A stretch of 64,000 nt of DNA from the NCBI GenBank assembly GCA_963706285.1, contig CAVPLU010000004.1, forward strand, positions 384,001-448,000, given 5' to 3'. The stretch is from Candidatus Bathyarchaeota archaeon (GTDB lineage: Archaea; Thermoproteota; Bathyarchaeia; 40CM-2-53-6). The notes beneath the pieces were generated by a model. It did no database searches, was not told the origin of the DNA, and was given only the letters and a program-made list of their open reading frames with translations. The stretch's first letter is position 1. Each line of letters begins with the position of its first letter. This document shows, piece after piece, positions 1,966-40,581 of this stretch. The position numbers were made by a program, and so were the translations under genes.

Positions 1966-2120
1966 TTACAATTTATCGGAGCATCCGAATGCCTGCGTGA
2001 TGGTCGCGTTTGCGATCTTCTCTTGCAGACGAGTATCGCTCGCTTAGTGCTTGGCTATTGTGGACTCTAGAAGATGCTGCGGCTTTCGCAAGATGGTTTG
2101 GTGGAGACGTTACGGACCAA

Positions 2121-2265
2121 TGGTATTCCCCCAGAACCGCTTTGCGCGGTTCTGTGCGGGGGGTGGATCTTCGGTCTTTCGTCAGACTTTCGAACCACCG
2201 ATCTCAGGGTTTCCCAGGAGGCTCATATGAGCCCTGCGGGTTAAACCTGGCTACCCCACCCCGCT
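2121..2265 (-). tRNA. Initiator tRNA-Met(CAT) with three introns: 37/38 (2211-2225), 59/60 (2168-2188), 71/72 (2126-2155); CCA encoded
   Basis: Spliced sequence AGCGGGGTGGGGTAGCCAGGTTTAACCCGCAGGGCTCATA|ACCCTGAGATCGGTGGTTCGAA|TCCACCCCCCGC|TACCA folds as a cloverleaf with A1-U72 and G29-31/C39-41 initiator hallmarks; each junction forms a strict or relaxed BHB. Confidence 0.9.
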
Positions 2266-2313
2266 GTTCTGAGATCTCCGCACGTCTCCGAGCCAAGACT
2301 CTCATGTCCAGAA

Positions 2314-2328
2314 GTTAAAGGTTTTCAG
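2314..2328 (-). promoter_or_regulatory. BRE/TATA-like promoter of tRNA-iMet
   Basis: Minus strand GAAAACCTTTAACT about 50 nt upstream of the tRNA 5' end. Confidence 0.55.
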
Positions 2329-40462: not shown

Positions 40463-40581
40463 TGGCGGGCCCGGTGGGATTCGAACCCACGACCTCTGGC
40501 TTTCTGCCGAGTCGTCCGCAGGCTTCCGCGAGGAGGCTGTGCCTCCGCTCAACGTCATGATCCTGGCTAGACTACGGGCCC
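40463..40581 (-). tRNA. tRNA-Arg(GCG) with introns at 29/30 (40524-40549) and 37/38 (40502-40515); CCA encoded
   Basis: Spliced GGGCCCGTAGTCTAGCCAGGATCATGACGTTG|GCCTGCGG|AGCCAGAGGTCGTGGGTTCGAATCCCACCGGGCCCGCCA; canonical BHB helix CTGC/GCAG. Confidence 0.9.

What the first reader, a model, noticed from the sequence alone, without database searches (positions are those of the whole stretch)
2121..2167. Intron inside the acceptor stem (71/72) of the initiator tRNA-Met
Seen: the minus strand reads ...CCACC-CCCC-GC^A-CAGAACCGC-GCAAA-GCGGTTCTG-GGGG-AA^T-ACCA. This has BHB-type geometry: a 4-bp CCCC/GGGG helix, a 3-nt bulge on each strand and a 9-bp intron hairpin; the outer helix is absent, so it is a relaxed form. 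Cutting after the second nt of each bulge (the established EndA rule) removes 30 nt (2126-2155) and yields CCCCGC-U72-A73-CCA, restoring the A1-U72 initiator pair. Unspliced, the gene has A1:A72 and C73 and would not be a valid iMet. Inference: the last exon is only 5 nt (UACCA), so splicing must happen before 3' trimming. I do not recall 71/72 among reported archaeal intron positions, and tRNA finders may call such genes truncated or pseudo.
Basis: partly seen in the sequence, partly recalled or inferred. Interest (0 to 1): 0.88.

Follow-up and report, generated by a model that had tools for sequence, protein, structure and literature searches.

The report
Intron splitting initiator tRNA's last five bases
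The only initiator tRNA gene of this uncultured archaeon carries three introns, and the third sits between the last two acceptor-stem positions, so the final exon is only five bases long and a conserved pairing of the flanking sequences probably holds it in place during splicing.

Summary

- One bulge-helix-bulge cutting rule removes all three. The product is a perfect 79-nt cloverleaf with A1-U72, A73 and CCA.
- That product matches the intron-free parts of relatives' genes, with 0 mismatches in 14 of 20.
- The insertion is present in 8 of 10 genomes of one Bathyarchaeia genus. It was not found in the other 391 Bathyarchaeia genomes sampled.
- Across 44 gene versions, 2 of 79 exon columns vary against 48 of 69 intron columns. 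TACCA never varies, and the intron hairpin shows compensatory changes.
- The genome encodes a two-subunit EndA with the loop lysine linked to broad specificity, plus RtcB.
- No second initiator gene was found.

New here: a conserved 13-bp leader-trailer helix, seen only in this gene and this genus, which may tether the 5-nt exon. Splicing itself is not shown; RNA-library contigs carried only the unspliced form. Whether 71/72 is unreported could not be settled.

The parts
2312..2325 (-). Promoter-like element (A-rich stretch followed by a TTTAA-type box), 60 to 47 nt upstream of tRNA position 1
   Evidence: Nearly invariant in 42 of 44 aligned gene versions. It lies about 30 nt upstream of the leader helix strand. 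The two versions with a different leader have another T/A-rich box at a similar distance from the same helix strand. Its role as a promoter is inferred from position and composition only.
2277..2289 (-). Leader strand of the leader-trailer helix (13 nt)
   Evidence: Pairs with 2116-2103. Over 13 pairs, 94.7% of cells are paired in 44 versions. One pair changes on both sides and two on one side. Duplex energy is -24.5 to -33.5 kcal/mol in 8 of 8 genomes of the genus.
2269..2276 (-). Leader octamer complementary to tRNA positions 41-48
   Evidence: Read. Nearly invariant in 42 of 44 versions. It pairs with the tRNA body in the minimum-energy fold of the 200-nt precursor. It is absent from the two versions with the alternative leader. 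Function unknown.
2226..2265 (-). Exon 1: tRNA positions 1-37, with anticodon CAT
   Evidence: One of 40 columns varies in 44 versions.
2211..2225 (-). Intron 1, 15 nt, at the canonical 37/38 site (hBH form: positions 32-35 pair with four intron bases, followed by a two-base intron end)
   Evidence: The central helix is 98.9% paired in 44 versions. Ten of 15 columns vary.
2189..2210 (-). Exon 2: tRNA positions 38-59
   Evidence: One of 22 columns varies.
2168..2188 (-). Intron 2, 21 nt, at 59/60 in the T-loop. Full hBHBh' motif, with the T-stem as outer helix, positions 54-57 as central helix and a 4-bp inner helix.
   Evidence: Two of the 4 inner-helix pairs change on both sides. Twenty of 23 columns vary. 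Relatives in other genera also carry an insertion at this site.
2156..2167 (-). Exon 3: tRNA positions 60-71. Positions 66-69 (2161-2158) form the exon strand of the central helix of intron 3; positions 70-71 plus the first intron base form the 5' bulge (2157-2155).
   Evidence: None of 12 columns varies. The bulge reads GCA in 44 of 44 versions.
2126..2155 (-). Intron 3, 30 nt, between positions 71 and 72 (the finding). It has 9-bp hairpin arms (2154-2146 and 2140-2132), a loop (2145-2141) and GGGG (2131-2128) pairing with positions 66-69. Its last two bases plus T72 form the 3' bulge (2127-2125).
   Evidence: The central helix is invariant in 44 of 44 versions. Four of 9 hairpin pairs change on both sides, and 93.2% of hairpin cells are paired. 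Eighteen of 31 columns vary. Length is 30 nt in 41 versions, 29 in 2 and 31 in 1. There are 24 distinct intron sequences.
2121..2125 (-). Exon 4: T72, A73, C74, C75, A76 (5 nt)
   Evidence: None of 5 columns varies in 44 versions, while the next four trailer columns all vary. After removal of intron 3 it restores the 3' end that relatives have uninterrupted.
2103..2116 (-). Trailer strand of the leader-trailer helix (14 nt with a one-base bulge)
   Evidence: It begins 4 variable nt after A76.

Best explanation
This is the functional, single-copy initiator tRNA-Met gene of a Bathyarchaeia archaeon, interrupted by three protein-spliced (bulge-helix-bulge) introns.

The third intron lies between acceptor-stem positions 71 and 72. 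To be cut, the precursor must adopt a conformer in which the 3' acceptor strand (66-69) pairs with four G's near the end of the intron rather than with G4-G7. That 4-bp helix, stacked between the T-stem and the intron's 9-bp hairpin, presents a closed 3-nt bulge at the 5' splice site and an open-ended 3-nt stretch at the 3' splice site. This is the relaxed HBh' form.

The genome's two-subunit splicing endonuclease cuts after the second base of each, and RtcB joins C71 to U72. The 5-nt last exon is paired to nothing in this conformer. I therefore propose that the conserved 13-bp pairing between the 5' leader and the 3' trailer keeps it tethered to the tRNA body, so that this intron is removed before RNase P and 3' trimming act.

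Shown:
- the sequence anatomy;
- its conservation pattern and compensatory changes;
- the identity of the predicted product with relatives' initiator tRNA;
- the presence of the enzymes' genes.

Inferred:
- actual cleavage and ligation;
- the order of processing events;
- the tethering role of the leader-trailer helix.

The confidence given (0.8) is for the core claim that this is a genuine spliced intron at 71/72. For the tether role alone I would say about 0.4.
For: (1) One geometric rule (4-bp central helix, cut after the second bulge base on each strand) applied to all three insertions yields a 79-nt sequence. ARAGORN folds it as tRNA-Met(CAT) with A1-T72, A73, CCA and three G-C pairs closing the anticodon stem.

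(2) That product threads through 20 initiator genes of other genera with block insertions only. Mismatches are 0 in 14 genes, 1 in 2 and 4 in 4. None has an insertion 3' of the T-loop site.

(3) Distribution:
- 7 of the 9 other genomes of the genus hold the full gene at 89-95% identity. The two without any match are 77% and 69% complete.
- A scan of one genome per species (185,579 species) found the motif next to an initiator body only in 7 Bathyarchaeia records, all of this genus.
- In 401 sampled Bathyarchaeia genomes from 131 genera, 13 matched the looser pattern. Eight of these are this genus and the other 5 are not tRNA genes.

(4) Selection, from 44 distinct versions:
- 2 of 79 exon columns vary against 48 of 69 intron columns;
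- TACCA varies at 0 of 5 columns, and the next four trailer columns vary at 4 of 4;
- 4 of 9 intron-3 hairpin pairs change on both sides;
- across the whole structure, 45 cells change on both sides against 17.6 +/- 3.1 in shuffles, with 0 of 500 shuffles reaching the observed value.

(5) No second initiator gene and no paralogue of the intron was found in the 2.13-Mb assembly.

(6) Enzymes:
- Two EndA-family genes of 186 and 174 aa each carry both Pfam endonuclease domains.
- The 186-aa protein aligns end to end with solved two-subunit-type endonuclease chains. It keeps the Tyr/His/Lys triad and has a Lys at the position of K44 of chain 3p1z_B. PMC6379350 (passages) ties that lysine to cleavage of relaxed motifs.
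- RtcB, RNase P RNA and a CCA-adding enzyme are present.

(7) Leader-trailer helix:
- duplex energy is -24.5 to -33.5 kcal/mol in 8 of 8 genes of the genus;
- it is -6.5 to -21.2 in 20 initiator genes of other genera;
- it is -7.9 to -19.8 in 14 other tRNA genes of this genome;
- it is kept in the two versions whose leader and promoter are otherwise different.

(8) With leader and trailer included, the minimum-energy fold of the 200-nt precursor contains the splicing-competent helix (-94.2 kcal/mol, against -91.4 when the acceptor stem is forced).
Against: - No spliced junction was observed. See Tried and rejected for the RNA-library contigs, which showed only the unspliced arrangement.
- The outer helix of the motif is missing, so cleavage depends on a broad-specificity enzyme that was not assayed.
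- The two conformers are close in energy, and the ranking depends on the calculation. With all other helices fixed, the acceptor-stem form is the more stable (-75.7 against -71.6 kcal/mol). RNAalifold's consensus chooses the acceptor stem.
- The central helix never varies, so it carries no covariation evidence.
- One hairpin position is unpaired in 20 of 44 versions.
- Intron 3 and the leader-trailer helix co-occur in a single clade. This is one evolutionary event, not independent support for a functional link.
- RtcB matches in two overlapping reading frames, which I did not resolve.
- The assembly is 89% complete, so a second initiator gene cannot be strictly excluded.
Confidence: 0.8

Rival explanations
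1. The 30 nt are not an intron. The tRNA ends within the annotated intron (A at 72, C at 73), the hairpin belongs to the 3' trailer or terminator, and the CCA-adding enzyme supplies CCA. The result is an initiator with an A1/A72 mismatch.
For: ARAGORN accepts this form once the two other introns are removed. The acceptor-stem conformer is energetically competitive. A CCA-adding enzyme is encoded. Only unspliced sequence was seen in RNA-library contigs.
Against: All 20 relatives' initiator genes have T72 and A73. TACCA lies exactly where the cut rule predicts and is invariant in 44 versions, while the bases just after it vary freely. GGGG, which has no role in this rival reading, is also invariant. 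All 14 other tRNA genes checked in this genome encode their own CCA.
Confidence: 0.07
2. The gene is a disabled copy (an insertion scar), and the working initiator tRNA gene lies in the unassembled part of the genome.
For: The assembly is 89% complete with 7.5% contamination. tRNA genes are often missing from draft genomes.
Against: The exons are almost invariant, the introns vary, and the hairpin shows compensatory changes across 44 versions. This is purifying selection on a spliced product, not decay. None of the 8 genomes of the genus that hold the gene gave a second match to the 40-nt first exon. No other copy is in this assembly.
Confidence: 0.04
3. The intron is real and spliced, but the leader-trailer helix has nothing to do with holding the 5-nt exon. 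It could be a general processing or protection stem, for example against exonucleases or premature RNase P or 3'-end cleavage, or a signal for transcription start or termination.
For: Much of the helix is conserved in sequence, not only in pairing: 4 of 13 pairs never vary and 6 depart only by unpaired cells. Its co-occurrence with intron 3 is a single evolutionary event. No bulge-helix-bulge motif is visible in it.
Against: It is absent from 20 initiator genes of other genera and from 14 other tRNA genes of the same genome. It survives a complete replacement of the rest of the leader. In the splicing conformer the 5-nt exon has no other partner.
Confidence: 0.35

Closest known systems
Non-canonical bulge-helix-bulge tRNA introns of Thermoproteales and other archaea with two-subunit endonucleases, including multi-intron genes and acceptor-stem introns such as 3/4 (PMC4090602, passages)
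   Same: The motif is the same: a 4-bp helix with 3-nt bulges, here in relaxed HBh' form. Several introns sit in one gene. The enzyme set is the same (two-subunit EndA with the loop lysine, plus RtcB). A 59/60 intron and a 37/38 intron occur in the same gene.
   Different: The position is at the very 3' end of the acceptor stem, so the last exon is 5 nt and consists of U72, the discriminator and the encoded CCA. The lineage is Bathyarchaeia. I found no text naming this position, but the primary lists (Sugahara 2008; Marck and Grosjean 2003) are not held in the library and supplements are closed.
Split tRNA genes of Nanoarchaeum equitans and some Crenarchaeota (PMC3218864, passages; that complementary flanking sequences bring the halves together is my recollection)
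   Same: Base pairing outside the mature tRNA would hold two pieces together so that the endonuclease and ligase can act on a relaxed motif.
   Different: Here everything is on one transcript. The proposed tether joins the 5' leader to the 3' trailer rather than forming the helix next to the splice site.
Circularly permuted tRNA genes of Thermofilum pendens and red algae (PMC3218864; PMC3978253; passages)
   Same: Leader and trailer of the precursor pair with each other. Initiator tRNA is one of the affected genes in T. pendens. The 59/60 site is used.
   Different: In permuted genes the leader-trailer pairing itself forms the cut motif and gives a circular intermediate. Here the gene order is normal and I saw no cut motif in the leader-trailer helix.
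Heavily interrupted tRNA genes of some Asgard archaea (preprint 10.64898/2026.10.13.758758, abstract and passages; PMC11291895, passages)
   Same: Most tRNA genes carry introns, often several per gene, and standard finders miss many. The same holds in this genome, where ARAGORN with introns found 26 genes and Rfam put 16 over its cut-off.
   Different: The phylum is different. Those papers' position tables are in supplements I could not open, so I cannot say whether an equivalent site is listed there.

Membership tests
Archaeal bulge-helix-bulge (EndA-spliced) tRNA intron | Central helix of exactly 4 bp between the two splice sites | tested here: met
   Positions 66-69 pair with GGGG of the intron. 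The pairing is in the minimum-energy fold and present in 44 of 44 versions. It is invariant, so it gives no covariation.
Archaeal bulge-helix-bulge (EndA-spliced) tRNA intron | Two 3-nt bulges on opposite strands, each 3' of its helix strand, cut after the second base | tested here: met
   The 5' bulge is 2157-2155 and the 3' stretch is 2127-2125. Cutting there gives the canonical 3' end. The same rule fits introns 1 and 2. The handedness was checked against PMC4090602.
Archaeal bulge-helix-bulge (EndA-spliced) tRNA intron | Flanking helices h (exon side) and h' (intron side) of at least 2 bp for the strict motif | tested here: not met
   h' is present (a 9-bp hairpin with compensatory changes). 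h is absent: the bases after the 3' splice site have no partner. This makes it the relaxed HBh' form, not the strict motif. The T-stem could stack in the place of h, but that is inference.
Archaeal bulge-helix-bulge (EndA-spliced) tRNA intron | Removal restores a functional tRNA | tested here: met
   ARAGORN draws a full cloverleaf. The product has 0 mismatches to the intron-free parts of 14 of 20 relatives' genes.
Archaeal bulge-helix-bulge (EndA-spliced) tRNA intron | Host encodes an endonuclease able to cut relaxed motifs, and a ligase | tested here: met
   Two EndA-family genes are present. The catalytic triad and the loop lysine are aligned to solved chains. RtcB is present, though in two overlapping frames. 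Activity was not assayed.
Archaeal bulge-helix-bulge (EndA-spliced) tRNA intron | Spliced junction or excised (circular) intron observed in RNA | tested here: inconclusive
   Four RNA-library runs were laid as contigs. No joint was found, and 7 of 9 records are colinear with the unspliced gene. Contigs cannot show absence, and raw tRNA-seq was not available.
Archaeal initiator tRNA-Met | Anticodon CAT, A1-U72 pair, discriminator A73 and three G-C pairs at the bottom of the anticodon stem (features recalled from general knowledge of initiator tRNAs) | tested here: met
   All are seen in the script-spliced product. A1-U72 and A73 exist only after removal of intron 3.

The most novel reading that the evidence does not exclude
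The leader-trailer panhandle is a dedicated cis-acting device that makes an otherwise unworkable intron position viable. On this reading it tethers a 5-nt terminal exon through cleavage and ligation and favours the splicing conformer over the acceptor stem. It also enforces a 'splice first, trim ends later' order, which stops 3'-end enzymes from cutting inside the intron and making a dead-end initiator with A72/C73. This would be a new class of pre-tRNA element, and evidence that intron position can drive the evolution of flanking RNA structure.
Probability: 0.35. Interest if true: 0.75.

Novelty: new variant of a known kind. Interest (0 to 1): 0.56.

Why it matters
Initiator tRNA is essential and single-copy here, so every round of translation initiation in these widespread sediment and peat archaea would depend on removing three introns. 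One of them leaves a 5-nt exon that carries the discriminator base and the CCA end.

- It marks an extreme of where protein-spliced introns can sit.
- It implies a fixed order of processing steps.
- It gives a simple test system for how a tiny exon is kept for ligation: one transcript, two endonuclease subunits and one ligase.
- In practice, standard tRNA finders miss the gene completely. Genomes of this group will look as if they lack an initiator tRNA, and counts of archaeal tRNA introns near gene ends are probably too low.

Tried and rejected
1. Rfam at a permissive threshold over 1900-2500 gave only sub-threshold hits to Pyrobaculum small RNAs on the plus strand over the hairpin (16.2 and 15.1 bits against cut-offs of 71 and 40). 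I rejected these as chance hairpin matches.

2. RNA evidence.
- The look-up of sequencing runs listed 24 runs, of which 20 hold part of the stretch and 6 are recorded as RNA.
- I laid four RNA runs, all kept as contigs. There were no joints.
- Seven of 9 records are colinear with the unspliced gene of relatives. Two belong to other organisms' initiator genes.
- Some records extend beyond the presumed promoter or terminator, so DNA carry-over or read-through is possible.
- This neither supports nor refutes splicing.

3. A second initiator gene or a donor copy of intron 3 was sought in the assembly with blastn-short. Only the locus itself matched; other hits were 14 nt or shorter for the mature-sequence query and 13 nt or shorter for the intron queries.

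4. Other tRNA genes with a split 3' acceptor strand were sought with my own scan, anchored on a T-loop start. It gave 7 hits, and only the initiator gene is convincing. The scan cannot see genes whose T-loop start is itself interrupted.

5. A cut motif inside the leader-trailer helix would imply a circular intermediate as in permuted tRNAs. I inspected the duplexes by eye and saw none. The outer 4-bp extension is not conserved.

6. The first six bases of the intron hairpin equal the last six leader bases in this genome. The relatives do not keep this, so I dropped it as a functional pairing.

7. Which conformer dominates could not be settled: disagree within about 3-4 kcal/mol.

8. ORF 2010-2318 (+, 102 aa) overlaps the gene. 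I did not test it. The variation follows exon/intron borders, which a coding frame would not produce.

9. Literature.
- Searches found no text naming an intron at 71/72 or any 3'-strand acceptor position.
- One search returned only unrelated papers.
- The paper tools cannot search numbers joined by a slash. A control search for a position that is in the text returned nothing.
- Sugahara 2008 and Marck and Grosjean 2003 are not held, figures are not held, and supplements are closed.
- 'Not in print' is therefore not established.

Full report
**What is there**

Read on the minus strand, window 2265-2121 is a 145-nt gene. It begins with the 5' acceptor strand typical of archaeal initiator tRNA, carries anticodon CAT and ends in TACCA. 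It is interrupted three times (coordinates):

| Piece | Window coordinates | Length |
|---|---|---|
| Exon 1 | 2265-2226 | 40 nt |
| Intron 1 | 2225-2211 | 15 nt |
| Exon 2 | 2210-2189 | 22 nt |
| Intron 2 | 2188-2168 | 21 nt |
| Exon 3 | 2167-2156 | 12 nt |
| Intron 3 | 2155-2126 | 30 nt |
| Exon 4 | 2125-2121 | 5 nt |

No standard finder sees the gene:
- ARAGORN finds no tRNA in the window.
- ARAGORN with its intron option does not call this locus in the whole genome.
- Rfam's tRNA model gives nothing at E<=10 over 1900-2500.
- Rfam gives nothing at this locus at E<=1 genome-wide.

**The three introns obey one rule**

The review PMC4090602 (passages) describes the archaeal motif as a 4-bp helix flanked by two 3-nt bulges, with the first two anticodon bases inside the helix. 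The exon strand of the helix therefore lies directly 5' of the 5' bulge, and the cut falls after the second bulge base.

- Intron 1: positions 32-35 pair with four intron bases that are followed by two more intron bases. This is site 37/38, in hBH form.
- Intron 2: positions 54-57 pair the same way. The T-stem is the outer helix and a 4-bp inner helix closes the intron. This is site 59/60, a full motif.
- Intron 3: positions 66-69 pair with GGGG, the 9-bp hairpin is the inner helix, and nothing pairs with the bases after the 3' splice site. This is site 71/72, in HBh' form.

Joining the exons by coordinates in a script gives 79 nt. ARAGORN draws this as a perfect tRNA-Met(CAT) with A1-T72, A73 and CCA. 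With intron 3 left in, it draws an A1/A72 mismatch and discriminator C.

**Comparison with relatives**

The assembly is a 2.13-Mb, 21-contig draft, 89% complete. Record titles of its closest relatives read 'Candidatus Bathyarchaeia archaeon'.

- Within the genus: a DNA search of 41 genomes found the whole gene at 89-95% identity in 7 of the 9 other genomes. The two without any match are 77% and 69% complete. All 8 copies have the same three insertions.
- Other genera: in 22 loci from other genera of the family and order I recognised the initiator gene in 20. All 20 read straight through from position 71 to 72. They carry other introns at many sites, up to four per gene.
- Product identity: the script-spliced product of our gene threads through those 20 genes with block insertions only. 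Mismatches are 0 in 14 genes, 1 in 2 and 4 in 4.
- Species-wide scan: a pattern scan of one genome per species (185,579 species) returned 25 loci. Seven are Bathyarchaeia and all belong to this genus; 18 carry bacterial labels and have no tRNA body.
- Class-wide scan: a looser pattern over 401 Bathyarchaeia genomes (131 genera) hit 13 genomes. Eight are this genus and five are not tRNA genes. The reversed control pattern hit ten genomes by my count.

Among the genomes searched, the insertion is therefore a character of one genus.

**Selection**

A metagenome scan added further copies. Over all loci I found 61 full genes, 42 of them distinct, and 44 distinct versions with flanks. One row was dropped for lack of flank.

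| Region | Variable columns |
|---|---|
| Exons (all four) | 2 of 79 |
| Introns (all three) | 48 of 69 |
| TACCA (exon 4) | 0 of 5 |
| Next four trailer columns | 4 of 4 |

Other points:
- The 5' bulge is the same in 44 of 44 versions. The 3' stretch varies at its second base (34 A, 10 G).
- In the intron-3 hairpin, 4 of 9 pairs change on both sides and 93.2% of cells pair, but one position is unpaired in 20 of 44 versions.
- The central helix never varies.
- Over the whole structure I specified, 45 cells change on both sides against 17.6 +/- 3.1 in shuffles (0 of 500 reach it), and sliding the partners destroys the signal.

This is the pattern of a spliced, functional gene, not of a decaying one.

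**Single copy, and the enzymes**

Only the locus itself matches the predicted mature sequence in the assembly, and intron 3 has no paralogue. The genome encodes:
- two EndA-family proteins of 186 and 174 aa, each with both Pfam endonuclease domains;
- RtcB (in two overlapping frames, unresolved);
- RNase P RNA;
- a CCA-adding enzyme.

The 186-aa protein aligns over its whole length with solved endonuclease chains. It keeps the Tyr/His/Lys triad and has a lysine opposite K44 of chain 3p1z_B. PMC6379350 (passages) names that loop lysine as the determinant of cleavage of relaxed motifs by two-subunit enzymes.

The 5' leader (2289-2277) and the 3' trailer (2116-2103) are complementary over 13 bp with one bulged base.

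| Genes compared | Duplex energy (kcal/mol) |
|---|---|
| 8 of 8 initiator genes of this genus | -24.5 to -33.5 |
| 20 initiator genes of other genera | -6.5 to -21.2 |
| 14 other tRNA genes of this genome | -7.9 to -19.8 |

- All 14 of those other tRNA genes encode CCA.
- In 44 versions, 94.7% of helix cells pair. One pair runs G-C, G-U, A-U.
- Two versions have a different promoter and 45 extra leader bases, yet keep the helix (-33.9 and -31.2).
- A T/A-rich box lies about 30 nt upstream of the helix strand in both architectures. The primary transcript probably starts just before it, but that is inference.
- A further leader octamer (2276-2269) is complementary to tRNA positions 41-48.
- With leader and trailer included, the minimum-energy fold of the 200-nt precursor contains the leader-trailer helix, that octamer pairing and the central helix of intron 3. 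Its energy is -94.2 kcal/mol, against -91.4 when the acceptor stem is forced.
- Against this, the fixed-structure comparison (-71.6 against -75.7) and the alignment consensus favour the acceptor stem. The two conformers are close in energy.

**How it most likely works**

- The precursor is a panhandle.
- In the splicing conformer the intron's G's replace G4-G7 as partners of positions 66-69.
- The two-subunit endonuclease cuts after C71 and before U72.
- The 5-nt exon with its trailer stays attached through the leader-trailer helix. RtcB then joins C71 to U72, the acceptor stem forms, and RNase P and 3' trimming finish the ends.
- Cleavage, ligation, the order of events and the tether role are inferred.
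- RNA-library contigs from four runs show only the unspliced arrangement and no joints, which decides nothing.

**Comparison with what is known, and novelty**

Protein-spliced introns at non-canonical sites, several per gene and in relaxed motifs, are well known in archaea with two-subunit endonucleases. Reviews state that they occur in the acceptor stem, and 3/4 is cited as an extreme (passages).

This case is the same kind of intron. It differs in three ways:
- it sits at the last base pair of the acceptor stem;
- it leaves a 5-nt exon that carries the discriminator and CCA;
- it is accompanied by a clade-specific leader-trailer helix.

I found no text naming this position. I could not search slash-joined numbers, see figures or supplements, or read the primary surveys, so priority is open.

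I rate it a new variant of a known kind, of moderate interest. The comparative evidence makes the intron itself very likely real (about 0.8). The tether idea is plausible but untested (about 0.35-0.45).

Noticed in passing
window 2269-2276 (-) and tRNA positions 41-48 (window 2207-2200): The leader octamer just upstream of the tRNA is the exact reverse complement of tRNA positions 41-48. It is nearly invariant in 42 of 44 versions and pairs with the tRNA body in the predicted precursor fold. Its purpose is unknown. It would compete with the anticodon stem.
   Followed up: partly
L074 and L098 (metagenome contigs), upstream of the initiator gene: These two gene versions have a different T/A-rich promoter-like box and about 45 extra leader bases that fold into hairpins. 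They keep the leader-trailer helix and lack the octamer above.
   Followed up: partly
L029 and L030 (same order, other family): These initiator genes carry a 38-39-nt insertion within or just after the 5' acceptor strand (mature index about 4-7, ambiguous because of the G run), plus three other insertions. Acceptor-stem interruptions on the 5' side therefore also occur in this order.
   Followed up: no
L015 (sister genus), about 60 nt downstream of its initiator gene: A second, partial copy of the 3' part of the gene (T-arm with its intron and a diverged acceptor end) follows the complete gene. It looks like a duplication or an integration scar.
   Followed up: no
own genome, contig C4:105729-107043 (-), outside the window: RtcB matches in two adjacent pieces in different frames that overlap by 23 nt (profile positions 1-243 and 236-426). 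This could be a frameshift, an assembly error or a split gene.
   Followed up: no
window 2189-2273, RNA-library run X15, record 2: An 85-nt contig identical to the window ends exactly at the exon 2/intron 2 border. This could be a graph branch where spliced and unspliced reads diverge, or chance.
   Followed up: no
own genome as a whole; window 40466-40581 (-): The genome is very rich in tRNA introns. ARAGORN with introns finds 26 genes, several of them doubtful, and Rfam puts 16 over its cut-off. The only tRNA Rfam finds in the window is a 116-nt intron-containing gene. All 14 tRNA genes I checked encode CCA. Contig C20 duplicates part of C4, with the same Met and Phe genes.
   Followed up: partly
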